64,000 bases of DNA from NCBI GenBank assembly GCA_050015395.1, contig JBEKBM010000009.1, positions 32,978 to 96,977 on the forward strand. The letters run 5' to 3'. The stretch's first letter is position 1. Each line of letters starts with the position of its first letter. Position numbers and translations under genes: made by a program. The stretch comes from Candidatus Bathyarchaeia archaeon (GTDB taxonomy: Archaea > Thermoproteota > Bathyarchaeia > Bathyarchaeales > Bathycorpusculaceae). Of the stretch, positions 670 to 61,768 are shown one piece after another. Under the pieces are notes generated by a model. The model searched no databases and was not told where the DNA came from. It was given only the letters and a program-made list of their open reading frames with translations.

Positions 670-1320
670 ATGAAACTTGTTAAAACAGGAATCGCAGGTC
701 TCGACGAATTCTTAACTGGAGGTCTACCGCCTAAAATACTGCTTCTGACAGGCTTGCCTGGCTCGGGAAATGAAGTCTTTGCCAGACAAATCGCCTACGC
801 GCGAGCAAAGCAGATCGGGGTAACATACTTTACTGTAAATGTAAGCTCCGATAACGTGAAAGAAGATATGGCCGCCTACAACTGGGATATCGCACCGCTA
901 GAAGCCAACGGAAACTGGAAGTTCGAAACTTTAACAAAATCCGACAATCTGGTAGAAACCGTAATTGAAGAAGTGAGAGAACATCGAACAATCATTATAG
1001 ATTCACTTTCCGAAGTGCTCTTAACCCGGAAAATCGAAGAAGCCATCAACCTACTCACCGCAATGTCCCGTCAAAACAAAGACAGCGAAGAATACCACTT
1101 GCTTCTCTTAACTGAAGGGATGCAAGACCAAAAAGCTGAAACCGCAATGCAACACTTCGCCGACGGCGTAATATTATTCAACACAACCTGGACAACAGAT
1201 ACTACACATCGAGATATCATGGTAAAGAAGATGAAAGGCACCTTTGTTCCTTCACGAAGTCTGCCGTATACAATCGGCAAAAAAGGGTTTCTCATAGAAA
1301 CAGCAACTAGAATAACATAA
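670..1320 (+). CDS. KaiC/RAD55-like RecA-superfamily ATPase with degenerate Walker A
   Basis: KTGIAGLDEFLTGGLP start, GLPGSGNE (Lys missing), IIIDSLS, ADGVI, KKMKG. Confidence 0.85.
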   Translation: MKLVKTGIAGLDEFLTGGLPPKILLLTGLPGSGNEVFARQIAYARAKQIGVTYFTVNVSSDNVKEDMAAYNWDIAPLEANGNWKFETLTKSDNLVETVIEEVREHRTIIIDSLSEVLLTRKIEEAINLLTAMSRQNKDSEEYHLLLLTEGMQDQKAETAMQHFADGVILFNTTWTTDTTHRDIMVKKMKGTFVPSRSLPYTIGKKGFLIETATRIT

Positions 1321-7182: not shown

Positions 7183-7303
7183 TCTATTTTGCTCTCCCTG
7201 TTCATAGACGAAGCAACAAGTACGCTTCTAACCCTTTTTAAATCATCGTAGAAACGACATTGCGGAACAGGGGAGGGTAGAGTGAAAGTGAAAAGCGTAA
7301 GTT

Positions 7304-7510
7304 TTAGGCAGTAGGCTTGGTTTCTTTTTGTTGCCTTAGAATTTGGGTTGCCAATGTCATTAGGAAGATTATCGAGAACACTATTACCGCTATGCCTACC
7401 TTGTACATGATGTTTATGCCAACATAGAAAAGCCCAAAAACAGCCACAATCATTAACGCTAAAATAAACACTTCTTGAACACCACTAAAGACTTTTGTTC
7501 CAAAACTCAA
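7304..7510 (-). CDS. Small two-TM membrane protein
   Basis: Two hydrophobic helices, GGTGA RBS upstream. Confidence 0.6.
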   Translation of the reverse strand: MSFGTKVFSGVQEVFILALMIVAVFGLFYVGINIMYKVGIAVIVFSIIFLMTLATQILRQQKETKPTA

Positions 7511-7758
7511 TTTACGTCACCAATGTTTCCTAAACCACTGCACATGCGTCTAATATTAATTTTCTGCCATAGTTTCTCAGAAATCCCTGTTAAACTTGCA
7601 GGCTGAATTCATTTTGAGTATGCCGTGAATTGTAATGCACGTAGTATCGGAATGCTTCCGTTTAGTTTCGTTGAAAAAAGCTATCATATCCGCTCGAAAG
7701 CTTATATAACAAATGATTCAGAGTCACTAAAGACAGATGAAAATAACTCCAGCTTTCG

Positions 7759-50845: not shown

Positions 50846-51280
50846 TTACACGTAATCCTTAAGATGTAACACTCTAAACTGCCCTTTTGCTTTTTCGTAA
50901 AGCTTTGTATCAGACGTTATAAATTGCGCTCTTATTTTATCGGACAAGAAAACGTAAGCAGCATCATAAATTGCGATATCTAACTCGCATGCTATATCAA
51001 GCACTTCAGACGCCTGAGGCCAATCCAGTTCATAAAGCGTTATTGTAGTATCGCCAAGGGTCTTGAGAGCTTCCTGTGAATCTTCCTTCGAAAGTCTCTT
51101 CAGCTTTACCGCTTTCCAAAGAGCATTTGTGACCTCTAATGGAAGAATTGTTGGCGCGAAAAGGTTAGCTATTCCTGAAACTTGGTCTTGTTTTAACTTG
51201 AAGGCATTTTCCTGATAAGTTTCGATGGGTAAGACCCATTTGGCAATGACACTTGCGTCAACTACGTAATTCCTGCTGAT
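50846..51280 (-). pseudogene. vapC: VapC PIN toxin lacking a canonical start codon
   Basis: Open 144-codon frame (ATC)SRNYVVDASVIAKW...LEVTNALW...IYDAAYV...ITSD; in-frame TAG just upstream. Confidence 0.8.
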
Positions 51281-51507
51281 CTCTCTCTACCCTCTCTTAT
51301 CCAAGATAATAATTCCTCTTCAGACACAGGTTTACTGCGTTTCCGAATCTCATCCAGTTTTTCAGATGCAGCTCTCATTTTTTCTTGATCGATTTTCTTT
51401 TGAACGCATTCTCGGATGTATTGGCTCCAGTTCACTTTAACTTGCTTCATTTGCTTCTTTAGTTCGCTCGGAACTTTAACGGTGATAACATCTACTTGCT
51501 TCACCAT
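51262..51507 (-). CDS. RHH-type VapB antitoxin
   Basis: ITVKVPSELKKQM...VNWSQYIR; upstream of PIN frame. Confidence 0.8.
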   Translation of the reverse strand: MVKQVDVITVKVPSELKKQMKQVKVNWSQYIRECVQKKIDQEKMRAASEKLDEIRKRSKPVSEEELLSWIREGRERSAGIT

Positions 51508-51720
51508 ATACATCAGTGGACTATACTGGCGAGTATTACTAATAAACATTACACTGCAGCTAAGAGATTTAGAAAAAAAGTTATAAGATTGAAAACAAAA
51601 AACAAACAAAAATAAAATGTTGCGAAGGCTTTTCATCGGTTCTTCAAATACGCACAAAGTAACAATTTAAGGGTAAAATAAGCTGTTTTAAATATCCCTT
51701 TTTTTAAAGAGGCTCTTGGT

Positions 51721-51794
51721 GGGCAGGTAGTGAAGACTGGTATCATGGGCGCCTATCAAGCGCAAGTTCTCGGGTTCGAGTCCCGACCTGTCCA
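51721..51794 (+). tRNA. Atypical tRNA: Ala-type acceptor (G3:U70, A73) with ATC anticodon
   Basis: GGGCAGG TA GTGA AGACTGGTA TCAT G GGCGC CTATCAA GCGCA AGTTC TCGGG TTCGAGT CCCGA CCTGTCC A; TATA-like TTTTAAATA at 51686-51694. Confidence 0.75.
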
Positions 51795-52070
51795 CTATAA
51801 CAAACTTCAAAAAGTTTTAAATGAAACCCGTTCATCTTTACGGATATCCCGGGTTCTCATCTCGTGTGTGAAGACTGGTATCATCACAGCTTTTATCCGT
51901 GATTACACAATCACAGTATTTGTTAATAAGTGTTACTTTTTGTTACCTTGATAAAGTAACAATATACGTTAATGTTCCATGCATGGTTGTGTCTTCAAAA
52001 AGTTAACCTCAAAAATCAGAGCAAAATTAGCTTAAAAGAAAGATTAAAATTTTAGTTTAGGGGTTTGTGT

Positions 52071-52139
52071 TTACCATTCTTCTTCTTCCCATTCTTCATC
52101 TTCGCCTTCTTCCCATTCATCTTCCTCTTCGAATATCAT
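52071..52139 (-). CDS. 22-aa hyper-acidic Trp-repeat peptide
   Basis: MIFEEEDEWEEGEDEEWEEEEW*; GAGGTGA RBS 9 nt upstream. Confidence 0.6.
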   Translation of the reverse strand: MIFEEEDEWEEGEDEEWEEEEW

Positions 52140-52436
52140 ATCTCTTTTTCACCTCGCATAAGACGTTTAAAATTACCCTATCCCTGCGGCAGTTTAAACA
52201 TTTAGATTCGTCAAATGACGTTAATCTTGAGCAATGTACCCAGAATCAAACATGCTTCATGCACCGATTTTGTACTAATCTTCCTGCACAATAATAGCTA
52301 GTTCACTGTTATTGTGCAGTTCTGACCTAAAATTTTGGAGCCTAAAACTGTGAGCTCCGATGATAAGGAGGCAGGCAGGAATTCGTGGCGCTGCCCAACA
52401 AAATAGATAAATTCTCCAAAGACCCATTTAAGTCTC

Positions 52437-61268: not shown

Positions 61269-61345
61269 GCCCCGATGGCTCAGCCTGGTAGAGCGGCTGC
61301 CTCGTAAGCAGCAGGCCGCGGGATCAAAGCCCGCTCGAGGCTCCA
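61269..61345 (+). tRNA. tRNA-Thr(CGT), CCA encoded
   Basis: Cloverleaf with GCTGC CTCGTAA GCAGC; T73; T-loop ATCAAAG; C4-A69 mismatch. Confidence 0.9.
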
Positions 61346-61363: not shown

Positions 61364-61768
61364 CTATATGTGTTCGACATCTTTTATGTGAATGGCGCAC
61401 TTGCATTTCTTAAGTAGATCTAGATCTTCAGTAACTAGTTTCATATTCTCCTTTTCGGCAAGGTATGCGTATGAGGCATCATAGAAAGTAAGGTTTGTCT
61501 CTATAGCGATTGCCAGGACGTTAACAATAGAGTCGATGATGATCTTACGCAATTCAGCTATGCTTTCTGTGAAAATTTCTGCTATCCGTTTCGGGTCGTC
61601 CAGTTCCTTTTTCTTGTTTTCTTTCCAAAGAATATTTCCAATTTCGTATTCTGTTAGAGATGAAACTGCGTATTCTTCAAAGTTGAAGGGATTTCCTGAA
61701 ATAAGCATCGGATACAATGCGGATGCATCTATGAGATATTTACATTTCGTGTCTTGTCTCTTTGACAT
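61364..61768 (-). CDS. vapC: VapC PIN-domain toxin
   Basis: YLIDASA, YEIGN, LTFYDASY, LVTED. Confidence 0.9.
   Translation of the reverse strand: MSKRQDTKCKYLIDASALYPMLISGNPFNFEEYAVSSLTEYEIGNILWKENKKKELDDPKRIAEIFTESIAELRKIIIDSIVNVLAIAIETNLTFYDASYAYLAEKENMKLVTEDLDLLKKCKCAIHIKDVEHI

What the first reader, a model, noticed from the sequence alone, without database searches (positions are those of the whole stretch)
51686..51794. tRNA with alanine identity but an AUC (Asp-codon) anticodon
Seen: a full 74-nt cloverleaf with paired acceptor, D and T stems, a TATA-like box, G1-C72, G2-C71, G3:U70, A73 and anticodon loop CT-ATC-AA. Known: G3:U70 with A73 specifies AlaRS regardless of anticodon, tRNA-Asp needs GUC and G73, and A34 tRNAs are essentially absent from archaea. 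Inference: either a natural mistranslator inserting Ala at GAU codons, or a dedicated Ala donor or decoy RNA outside translation (it sits beside a VapBC locus). This is my best candidate for an undescribed system. A G27-A43 mismatch keeps a pseudogene reading open.
Basis: partly seen in the sequence, partly recalled or inferred. Interest (0 to 1): 0.8.

Follow-up and report, generated by a model that had tools for sequence, protein, structure and literature searches.

The report
Mobile alanine-type tRNA reading an aspartate codon
A well-formed tRNA gene that should carry alanine but pairs with the aspartate codon GAU sits on a tiny 343-base jumping element in a peat archaeon, and similar alanine/AUC tRNAs turn up rarely in other microbes.

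Summary
Window 51721-51794 (+) is a full tRNA (Rfam 53.8 bits) with G1-C72, G2-C71, G3:U70, A73, loop CUAUCAA (anticodon AUC) and a G27-A43 mismatch. In this genome G3:U70 occurs only in the three tRNA-Ala genes and this one. An ordinary intron-bearing tRNA-Asp(GUC, G73) exists elsewhere.

The gene is cargo of a 343-nt insertion (51649-51991) bounded by TCTTCAAA repeats.
- It is absent from the same site in 7 of 7 congeners examined.
- A 94.5%-alike copy sits at a different site in a metagenome contig, and that site is empty in another congener.
- Adjacency to VapBC is therefore incidental.

A census of 401 genomes of the class found two uninterrupted Ala-acceptor tRNAs with a non-Ala anticodon. 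Both are AUC with the same loop. The second lies in a 3.35-kb strain-specific island. Five bacterial records carry the same combination.

Best reading (0.42): a mobile, AlaRS-chargeable missense tRNA able to put Ala at GAU. Rivals are an inert passenger or a non-translational tRNA-like RNA. The closest known kinds are bacterial allo-tRNAs with G3:U70 and tRNAPro mistranslators.

The parts
51641..51648 (.). Left copy of the boundary repeat TCTTCAAA (target or core sequence)
   Evidence: Sequence. Empty sites in congeners read CATCGGTTTTTCAAAAAGTTAACC. The same 8-mer bounds the second copy in L051.
51649..51991 (+). 343-nt inserted element with no protein gene
   Evidence: Absent at the orthologous site in 7 of 7 congeners compared. 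Single copy in its own genome. A 94.5%-alike copy sits at another site in L051, whose empty site is seen in G083.
51656..51669 (+). Left-end motif AAAGTAACAATTTA, repeated directly near the right end
   Evidence: Repeat family D14. The same motif follows the core in G016 and, as GTGACA, in G130.
51683..51698 (+). Archaeal promoter-like box (AAGCTGTTTTAAATAT) for the tRNA
   Evidence: Sequence. Position and type match those upstream of the genome's own tRNA genes. Not tested for activity.
51721..51794 (+). tRNA with an alanine-type acceptor stem (G3:U70, A73) and anticodon AUC
   Evidence: ARAGORN; Rfam 53.8 bits; G3:U70 census.
51755..51757 (+). Anticodon ATC inside the loop CTATCAA (51753-51759)
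   Evidence: Sequence. The loop is identical in G280/L260 and in five bacterial records. L051 has C at position 33.
51809..51823 (+). Second promoter-like box (AAAAAGTTTTAAATG)
   Evidence: Sequence only; kept in L051 with one change just after the box. Function not shown.
51868..51884 (+). Exact 17-nt repeat of the tRNA's D arm (first copy at 51730-51746)
   Evidence: Repeat family D7; kept in L051. No second tRNA and no fold signal, z +0.14. Unexplained.
51930..51991 (+). Right-end module: GTTAC, hairpin TGTTACC/GTAACA, ACGTTAATGTTCCAT
   Evidence: Shared with G130, G020 and G096 (66-71 bits) and more weakly with G016, G080 and G113. The hairpin covaries in G130 (TGTCAC/GTGACA).
51992..51999 (.). 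Right copy of the boundary repeat TCTTCAAA
   Evidence: Sequence. All related right ends finish in TTCAAA.

Best explanation
This is an intact tRNA gene whose acceptor end is that of tRNA-Ala and whose anticodon AUC pairs with the aspartate codon GAU. It is carried as the only recognisable gene of a 343-nt, protein-less element that inserts at YTTCAAAAA sites.

Shown:
- The cloverleaf and its identity nucleotides are present.
- The element is an insertion, with two insertion sites and their empty counterparts.
- The same Ala-acceptor/AUC combination recurs in another archaeal family and in bacteria, in strain-specific or mobile settings.

Inferred:
- It is transcribed from its own TATA box.
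- It is trimmed and given CCA.
- It is charged with alanine by the single AlaRS, which reads G3:U70 and not the anticodon.
- It is ignored by AspRS, because it has A34, A38 and A73 instead of G34, C38 and G73.
- It then decodes a share of GAU codons (21.7 per 1000 codons) as Ala, in competition with tRNA-Asp(GUC).

It would thus be a mobile missense-decoding tRNA. A34 rather than G34 is what such a tRNA needs to escape AspRS and to be mild enough to persist. Who benefits (the element, the host under stress, or neither) is open.
For: - Rfam 53.8 bits and all tertiary positions are canonical.
- G3:U70 with A73 occurs only in the three tRNA-Ala genes and this gene, 4 of 51 calls.
- A separate tRNA-Asp(GUC, G73) exists.
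- There is one full AlaRS and no second full copy.
- The promoter is host-like.
- The insertion has clean empty sites at both loci.
- The tRNA keeps 73 of 74 bases between the two copies, while the whole element has 13 mismatches and 6 gap positions in 348 columns.
- In the census of 401 genomes of the class, the only two uninterrupted GGG...UCCA tRNAs with a non-Ala anticodon are both AUC with loop CUAUCAA.
- The second one (G280) has the body of its own genus' tRNA-Ala(UGC) with the anticodon arm exchanged, and lies in a 3.35-kb stretch missing in G370.
- Five further bacterial records have G3:U70, A73 and AUC.
- Over the 8 sequences, 94.5% of stem cells pair and 15 of 21 pairs show changes on both sides.
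- In yeast, tRNA-Ala anticodon variants do mistranslate, and in two-codon families including Asp the A34 form is milder than the G34 form (PMC10543346, passages).
- G3:U70 allo-tRNAs are charged by AlaRS in E. coli (PMC5389517, passages).
Against: - There are no data on transcription, CCA addition or charging.
- It is single copy in this genome. No full-length copy of the element turned up in any of 119 congeners, and a BLAST with the 74-nt tRNA alone hit none of 40 relatives, 24 of them congeners. It is therefore dispensable.
- The second copy has C33 in place of the near-universal U33, which should hurt decoding.
- G27-A43 is unpaired.
- A34 tRNAs are not a normal part of archaeal decoding (recalled knowledge).
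- Asp to Ala at 2% of codons should be costly.
- The covariation set was picked by a pattern that fixed the loop, the T loop and UCCA, and then by a cloverleaf filter. It shows tRNA shape, not common descent or function.
- No control scan with other loops could be run on the full genome collection, so the excess of AUC rests on two archaeal cases.
Confidence: 0.42

Rival explanations
1. Inert passenger. A tRNA-Ala-derived sequence was caught in, or is part of, a small mobile element. It is not used in translation, either because it is silent or unprocessed, or because it is made but harmless and A34 decodes poorly. It will decay.
For: It is lineage-specific, single copy and dispensable. The other copy has U33C. 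G27-A43 is mismatched. It is only 65-71% identical to the host's own tRNA-Ala genes, so it is not a recent host duplicate. Mukai et al. found many allo-tRNA(UAU) inactive or broken beside transposons (PMC5389517, passages).
Against: Every conserved tertiary position, all other stem pairs and a host-type promoter are intact. There is 1 change in 74 nt of tRNA against 18 changed or gapped columns in the rest of the element, although this difference is not significant. The same odd anticodon loop was found again on a different tRNA-Ala body in G280 and in bacteria, which neutral decay does not predict.
Confidence: 0.25
2. Non-translational tRNA-like RNA serving the element or the cell. It could be a decoy or spare substrate for tRNA-cutting nucleases (PIN/VapC-type or other anticodon nucleases), an Ala donor for a transferase, or a processing or recombination signal of the element.
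For: A PIN gene lies next to it in the window and 490 nt from the Patescibacteria example L253 (PF01850, E 7.6e-18). Allo-tRNA genes are often beside toxin-antitoxin systems (PMC5389517). A U33C copy is tolerated. The D-arm 17-mer is duplicated exactly inside the element, hinting at a use other than decoding.
Against: The L051 copy has no toxin-antitoxin neighbour on its contig. The G280 island ORFs have no Pfam hit. PIN genes number 37 in this genome and also sit beside ordinary tRNA genes, so adjacency is weak evidence. A role outside translation does not explain why the same anticodon loop recurs, unless a partner reads it. No transferase or nuclease travels with the element.
Confidence: 0.22
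3. An extra aspartate tRNA: it is charged by AspRS and reads GAU by a Watson-Crick pair.
For: ARAGORN names it Asp by its anticodon. Its G10:U25 pair is also present in the genome's tRNA-Asp.
Against: A34, A38 and A73 replace the G34, C38 and G73 that AspRS systems rely on (established identity rules, recalled). It has G3:U70. A normal tRNA-Asp(GUC, G73) already reads both codons.
Confidence: 0.03

Closest known systems
Allo-tRNAs with G3:U70 (Mukai et al. 2017, Nucleic Acids Res, PMC5389517; passages read)
   Same: They are natural tRNA genes whose acceptor identity (Ala by G3:U70, or Ser) disagrees with the anticodon. They were found in soil, peat and sediment sequence, often beside toxin-antitoxin genes or transposon remnants. 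The G3:U70 ones were charged by AlaRS in E. coli once given a CUA anticodon.
   Different: Allo-tRNAs have 8/4 or 9/3 acceptor/T-stem geometry and are bacterial, with anticodons GCG or UUA. This one is a standard 7/5 cloverleaf in an archaeon with anticodon AUC, on a defined 343-nt insertion with mapped empty sites.
tRNAPro mistranslators with non-proline anticodons in bacteria (PMC10404621; search listing and abstract only)
   Same: They are naturally encoded tRNAs that put one amino acid at another's codons.
   Different: As far as I recall, some of these come with a dedicated ProRS paralogue. Here there is one full AlaRS and no second copy, the identity is Ala, and the host is archaeal.
Engineered and human tRNA-Ala anticodon variants (PMC10543346; passages read)
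   Same: The mechanism is the same: AlaRS ignores the anticodon, so anticodon variants insert Ala. A34 variants of two-codon families are milder than G34 ones.
   Different: Those are point variants of resident eukaryotic genes, where A34 can become inosine. This is a separate gene, only 65-71% identical to the host's tRNA-Ala genes, and it rides a mobile element.
Small non-autonomous mobile elements (MITEs, IS200/IS605-derived PATEs) and integrase attP/attB systems
   Same: It is short, has no transposase and has fixed ends. It inserts at a recurring short sequence that then flanks it on both sides. Its right-end module with a covarying hairpin is shared with other loci of the genus. A joined right end-core-left end form exists in G130 and G016.
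   Different: It has no terminal inverted repeats and only one copy per genome. The ends are unlike this genome's IS605 copies. No recombinase has been identified. No MITE or PATE known to me carries a complete tRNA gene with its own promoter (recalled; one paper search, listed none among the 12 of its 479 matches that I saw).

Membership tests
tRNA (Rfam RF00005) | Covariance-model score above the gathering threshold over the full model | tested here: met
   53.8 bits against 29, model positions 1-71.
tRNA (Rfam RF00005) | Conserved tertiary nucleotides (U8, A14, G18 G19, A21, U33, T54-Psi55-C56, A58, G53:C61) | tested here: met
   Read from the sequence. The L051 copy has C33.
tRNA-Ala (by synthetase identity) | G3:U70 wobble pair with A73 and G2:C71 | tested here: met
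   Sequence. In this genome the pair occurs only in the three tRNA-Ala genes and this gene, 4 of 51.
tRNA-Ala (by decoding) | Anticodon NGC | tested here: not met
   The anticodon is AUC.
tRNA-Ala (by synthetase identity) | Aminoacylation by AlaRS | not testable with these tools
   One full AlaRS gene is present.
tRNA-Asp | Anticodon GUC, C38 and discriminator G73 (AspRS identity set, recalled) | tested here: not met
   It has A34, A38 and A73. The genome's real tRNA-Asp has GUC and G73.
Allo-tRNA | 12-bp acceptor branch split 8/4 or 9/3 | tested here: not met
   It has a 7-bp acceptor and a 5-bp T stem.
Allo-tRNA | Identity/anticodon disagreement and a toxin-antitoxin or transposon neighbourhood | tested here: met
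   G3:U70 with AUC; PIN and MazE-type neighbours; mobile insertion.
Mistranslator tRNA with dedicated synthetase (tRNAPro type) | A second, specialised synthetase gene | tested here: not met
   PF01411 gives one full-length match plus one 73-position fragment in a 279-aa frame.
MITE | Terminal inverted repeats | tested here: not met
   The ends share only CACAA/TTGTG.
MITE | Many copies per genome | tested here: not met
   Single copy in G000. No full copy in 119 congeners.
IS200/IS605-derived element (PATE) | Ends shared with an autonomous IS200/IS605 copy; subterminal hairpins at both ends | tested here: not met
   Two TnpB loci and one TnpA locus were found. The flanks of the TnpB copies and the TnpA region show no such module. 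A hairpin is seen only at the right end.
Integrative element using attP x attB | The same core at both junctions, and a contiguous right arm-core-left arm form elsewhere | tested here: met
   TCTTCAAA is at both junctions at two loci. The joined form is in G130 and G016.
Integrative element using attP x attB | A recombinase that acts on it | not tested
   There is none inside the element. Five weak-to-moderate tyrosine-recombinase matches occur in the genome. In G020 an archaeal phage integrase ORF lies 470 nt from a related right end.

The most novel reading that the evidence does not exclude
Alanine-accepting tRNA(AUC) genes are a recurrent, horizontally moving class in archaea and bacteria that deliberately turn a share of GAU codons into alanine. 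In this archaeon the gene travels on a 343-nt protein-less site-specific cassette. That would make it a mobile modifier of the genetic code whose selective use (stress-induced proteome diversification, conflict with viruses or with tRNA-cutting toxins, or plain addiction) is unknown.
Probability: 0.2. Interest if true: 0.85.

Novelty: new variant of a known kind. Interest (0 to 1): 0.62.

Why it matters
Natural tRNAs whose amino-acid identity contradicts their anticodon are the rare cases where cells, or their parasites, rewrite the code on purpose. So far they are known from bacteria (allo-tRNAs, tRNAPro variants), a few eukaryotes and human variants.

An archaeal case offers four things:
- a standard cloverleaf;
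- mapped insertion and empty sites;
- independent recurrence of the very same anticodon;
- a small, cloneable object of 343 nt that carries its own promoter.

Such an object could be used to test whether mistranslation is selected, how A34 is read in archaea, and how a gene-sized RNA cassette moves without a transposase of its own. If it proves inert, it still documents a new kind of tRNA-bearing mini-element. It also warns annotators that a tRNA-Asp(ATC) call can hide an alanine tRNA.

Tried and rejected
1. **Only tRNA-Asp of the genome.** Rejected. ARAGORN's 'tRNA-Phe(gaa)' at G000:C4:38400-38502 is, read by eye, tRNA-Asp(GUC) with a non-canonical intron.

2. **Recent duplicate of a host tRNA-Ala.** Rejected. 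Matches are 49-55 of 75-77 columns.

3. **IS200/IS605-derived element.** The flanks of this genome's TnpB copies and its TnpA region show nothing like the module.

4. **Viral origin.**
   - The 17-mer gave 2 hits in IMG/VR, both inside coding-looking sequence.
   - A looser right-end pattern gave 119 or more stretches. The best of these scored E 0.0029 with the right-end profile and lies in a coding-looking region.

5. **Second tRNA or structured RNA in the second half of the element.**
   - Rfam at E up to 10 found none.
   - ARAGORN at 90% and 80% thresholds found none; at 70% it gave three implausible calls.
   - The fold z-score is +0.14.

6. **Direct repeats around the G280 island.** They are only weak and patchy.

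8. **Other dead ends.**
   - The multi-locus Rfam one search returned nothing even for L051, which holds the tRNA, so I do not use it as a negative.
   - No SSU rRNA is in the assembly. The archaeal assignment rests on ABCE1/RLI, the non-canonical tRNA introns and the tRNA types.
   - Supplements of the cited papers were not seen. The per-anticodon values for AUC(Asp) in PMC10543346 are probably there.

Full report
**1. The observation**

ARAGORN finds two tRNAs in the window, one at 51721-51795 called tRNA-Asp(atc). Rfam's tRNA model matches 51721-51794 end to end at 53.8 bits (gathering score 29). A permissive scan of 51400-52300 finds nothing else of note.

Read directly from the sequence:
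- The acceptor stem is GGGCAGG/CCTGTCC, giving G1-C72, G2-C71, G3:U70, then four Watson-Crick pairs.
- The discriminator is A73 and CCA is not encoded.
- The D stem is GUGA/UCAU.
- The anticodon stem has four pairs under a G27-A43 mismatch.
- The loop is CUAUCAA.
- The T arm is UCGGG-UUCGAGU-CCCGA.
- All usual tertiary positions are canonical.

A TTTTAAAT box lies 26-33 nt upstream, as it does upstream of the genome's own tRNA genes.

**2. The genome's tRNA set**

The window is G000:C9:32978-96977, in a 2.59-Mb, 42-contig assembly of 42.6% G+C rated 98.9% complete. I take it to be archaeal, for three reasons:
- It has ABCE1/RLI.
- Its tRNA introns sit at non-canonical places.
- Its tRNA types are archaeal.

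No SSU rRNA is assembled.

ARAGORN lists 49 tRNA genes and Rfam 45. Two are seen by Rfam only: a tRNA-Ala(GGC) with a T-arm intron and a CAT tRNA with two introns.

No tRNA-Asp(GUC) is called. However, ARAGORN's 'tRNA-Phe(gaa)' at C4:38400-38502 contains an intact arm UGCGG-CUGUCGC-CCGCA, G73 and CCA. By eye it is tRNA-Asp(GUC) with an intron after the anticodon arm. The candidate is therefore an extra gene, not the cell's Asp decoder.

G3:U70 occurs in 4 of 51 calls: tRNA-Ala TGC, CGC and GGC, and the candidate. All four have A73. One full AlaRS gene is present. GAT makes up 21.7 per 1000 codons and 46% of Asp codons in 697 long ORFs.

**3. It sits on an insertion**

The 74-nt sequence has no BLAST match in 40 relatives, 24 of them congeners.

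I fetched the region upstream of the neighbouring ABCE1 gene from seven congeners whose ABCE1 is 92-98% identical.
- In G042, G003, G019 and G016 the flanks join as CATCGGTTTTTCAAAAAGTTAACC (or nearly so).
- The window reads CATCGGTTCTTCAAA, then 343 nt, then TCTTCAAA-AAGTTAACC.
- None of the seven has the inserted DNA. In G021, G044 and G052 the site is more diverged or holds other DNA.

The element (51649-51991) is single copy in its own genome. No full copy exists in 119 congeners.

**4. A second insertion**

One scan of metagenome contigs with the D-arm 17-mer plus a T-loop word returned three loci.
- L049 and L050 are the window's own locus, with identical flanks.
- L051 carries the same element in other surroundings: a DUF362 gene on one side and a membrane-protein start on the other.

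The two elements share 329 of 348 aligned columns (13 mismatches, 6 gap positions). The tRNAs share 73 of 74 bases. The one change is U33 to C.

L051's flank is 83-89% identical to congeners. In G083 the two flanks are contiguous, reading ...GCTTCAAAAACTAAG... In L051, TCTTCAAAAAC stands on both sides of the element.

So there are two independent insertions, each with an empty site, both at YTTCAAAAA. This also shows that the VapBC-like neighbours in the window are incidental. Those neighbours are a PIN frame at 50846-51250, Pfam E 5.3e-6, without a usual start codon, and MazE-type ORFs further on.

**5. How it may move**

There are no terminal inverted repeats. The last 70 nt consist of GTTAC, a hairpin TGTTACC/GTAACA, ACGTTAATGTTCCAT and TCTTCAAA.

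A profile of this module finds it in 12 of 119 congeners at E up to 0.01.
- Three matches are strong: G130, G020 and G096, at 66-71 bits.
- Three are weak but alignable: G016, G080 and G113.

In G130 the hairpin covaries (TGTCAC/GTGACA). All copies end in TTCAAA.

In G130 and G016 the module is followed at once by a sequence like the element's left end (AACTCAC..AGTAACA.TTTAAG). That is the order a circle junction or an attP site would have.

In G020 a related right end lies 470 nt from an ORF matching 'archaeal phage integrase' (PF16795). The start of that ORF overlaps a tRNA 3' fragment on the opposite strand.

I infer site-specific recombination through a joined form, by an enzyme supplied in trans. 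This is inference only. None of these other loci has a tRNA beside the module (ARAGORN). The flanks of the genome's TnpB copies and its TnpA region show no such module. No IMG/VR contig holds it.

**6. The rest of the element**

After the tRNA comes a second TTTTAAAT box and then an exact 17-nt copy of the D arm (51868-51884). Both are kept in L051.

No tRNA is found there. The predicted fold is no better than shuffles, with z +0.14. I cannot explain this half.

**7. Recurrence of the same chimera**

A pattern for loop TATCA, a standard T loop and a UCCA end was run over 401 genomes of the class. It hit G000 and one other genome, G280, which belongs to another family.

The G280 gene is GGGCTGG...CCAGTCCA, with G3:U70, A73, a perfect arm CCGCT-CTATCAA-AGCGG and a TTTAAAT box about 30 nt upstream.
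- Its acceptor, D arm, variable loop and T stem equal those of its genus' tRNA-Ala(UGC).
- The whole anticodon arm and two T-loop bases differ.
- In 29 other genomes of that genus, the best match is an ordinary tRNA-Ala.
- The gene lies in 3,353 nt (G280:C2:6366-9717) that G370 replaces with 77 nt. That stretch holds ORFs without Pfam hits.

Two wider patterns asked for any GGG...UCCA tRNA with a non-Ala anticodon in the same 401 genomes.
- With position 35 not G, 70 genomes matched. Apart from G000 and G280, these were register-shifted tRNA-Ala(UGC), A3:U70 tRNA-Ile or tRNA-Val, or non-tRNA.
- With G35 and position 36 not C, one artefact matched.

So both true cases are AUC with loop CUAUCAA, and both have G57 where the class's tRNA-Ala mostly have A57. 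The census cannot see intron-bearing genes or unusual T loops.

**8. Across all species representatives**

The loop-specific pattern found 33 records, all titled bacterial.
- Many are tmRNA 3' ends.
- Eight have 7 of 7 acceptor pairs with G3:U70.
- ARAGORN calls tRNA-Asp(atc) in six of them.
- One of the six (L260) is the same DNA as G280:C2, identical at 2,940 of 2,940 bases, so I count it once.

The five others are:

| Locus | Source | Neighbour |
|---|---|---|
| L243 | Gammaproteobacteria MAG | 24 nt from a peptidyl-tRNA hydrolase gene |
| L249 | Bacteroidota MAG | 75 nt from an IS1595 transposase |
| L251 | not determined | none noted |
| L253 | Patescibacteria | 490 nt from a PIN gene, E 7.6e-18 |
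| L262 | Parcubacteria | promoter and terminator |

I aligned the eight distinct sequences. 94.5% of stem cells pair, 15 of 21 pairs change on both sides, and G3:U70 is in 8 of 8.

The caveats are plain. The pattern fixed the loop, part of the T arm and UCCA. I then kept only cloverleaf-shaped hits. The result shows that such genes exist repeatedly as good tRNAs. It does not show that they share descent or function.

**9. Reading**

By established identity rules, AlaRS recognises G3:U70 and does not touch the anticodon. AspRS needs G34, U35, C36, C38 and G73. Both rules are recalled knowledge. The AlaRS rule is echoed in PMC5389517 and PMC10543346 (passages read). By these rules the RNA should be charged with Ala and not Asp.

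In yeast, tRNA-Ala anticodon variants mistranslate. In two-codon families including Asp, the A34 form is milder than the G34 form (PMC10543346).

Bacterial allo-tRNAs with G3:U70 and GCG or UUA anticodons accept Ala in E. coli. Their genes often lie by toxin-antitoxin systems or transposon remnants, and some are inactive or toxic (PMC5389517).

My best explanation is a mobile, Ala-charged tRNA able to read GAU (0.42). The rivals are:
- an inert passenger (0.25);
- a tRNA-like RNA used outside translation (0.22);
- a true Asp tRNA (0.03).

Transcription, maturation and charging are untested. 23 DNA runs from peat and wetland metagenomes hold the stretch, and one RNA run holds 0.04 of its words.

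**10. Novelty**

Identity/anticodon-mismatched tRNAs in mobile or toxin-antitoxin settings are known in bacteria. New here are:
- the archaeal host;
- the ordinary 7/5 cloverleaf;
- the 343-nt protein-less carrier with mapped empty sites;
- the repeated appearance of AUC.

My paper searches listed no description of an Ala-type tRNA(AUC) or of a tRNA-bearing mini-element in archaea. These searches cover open-access text only.

Noticed in passing
G000:C4:38400-38502 (-), outside the window: ARAGORN calls this tRNA-Phe(gaa) with an intron. By eye it is tRNA-Asp(GUC) with G73, encoded CCA and a non-canonical intron between the anticodon arm and the T arm. A true tRNA-Phe was not looked for.
   Followed up: partly
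G000:C4:23170-23275 (+) and G000:C13:22560-22686 (+), outside the window: Two tRNAs are seen by Rfam but not by ARAGORN: tRNA-Ala(GGC) with a 31-nt intron in the T arm, and a CAT-anticodon tRNA with two introns.
   Followed up: partly
window 52066-52135 (-): A short, very acidic reading frame (MIFEEEDEWEEGEDEEWEEEEW, then stop). Its 3' end is conserved in all seven congeners compared, next to the insertion site.
   Followed up: no
window 50846-51250 (-): A PIN-domain frame (PF01850, E 5.3e-6) has no ATG, GTG or TTG before its last 52 codons. It may use an unusual start or be decaying. The region is only about 70% identical to the closest congeners, while the flanks are 88-92% identical.
   Followed up: partly
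L037 (G044) about 7200-7700, same intergenic site as the window's insertion: This congener has about 400 nt of repeated GAAGAAGAAG-rich hairpin units in place of the element. The site is a hot spot for different insertions.
   Followed up: no
L284 (G004) about 1050-1500: At the very TTCAAAA site where L051 has the tRNA element, G004 has a different insertion of about 450 nt. Its reverse strand reads like a small nucleotidyltransferase (by eye; not scanned).
   Followed up: no
L041 (G020) 170-1030: An ORF matching archaeal phage integrase (PF16795) starts inside the 3' half of a tRNA whose acceptor end reads like this genus' tRNA-Gly(CCC), on the other strand. This is the layout of an integrated SSV-type element.
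   Followed up: partly
L196/L260 (G280:C2) 1165-1279 (-), just downstream of its AUC tRNA: A second hairpin carries the same loop word (GGGGAG-CTATCAA-ATCCCC) and an end like ...GCAGTCCA. The fold z-score is -1.98. ARAGORN's 'tmRNA' call here is probably an artefact of the Ala-type acceptor.
   Followed up: partly
L052 (G000:C20) 1-140: A head-to-tail array of a 23-nt unit (TATCCAAATCGTGATTCCGTTTG) lies at the contig start, just upstream of a TnpB-like ORF.
   Followed up: no
window 61269-61345 (+) and 61406-61723 (-): The window's other tRNA, tRNA-Thr(CGU), also has a PIN gene within about 60 nt. Several other PIN genes of this genome lie beside ordinary tRNA genes.
   Followed up: partly
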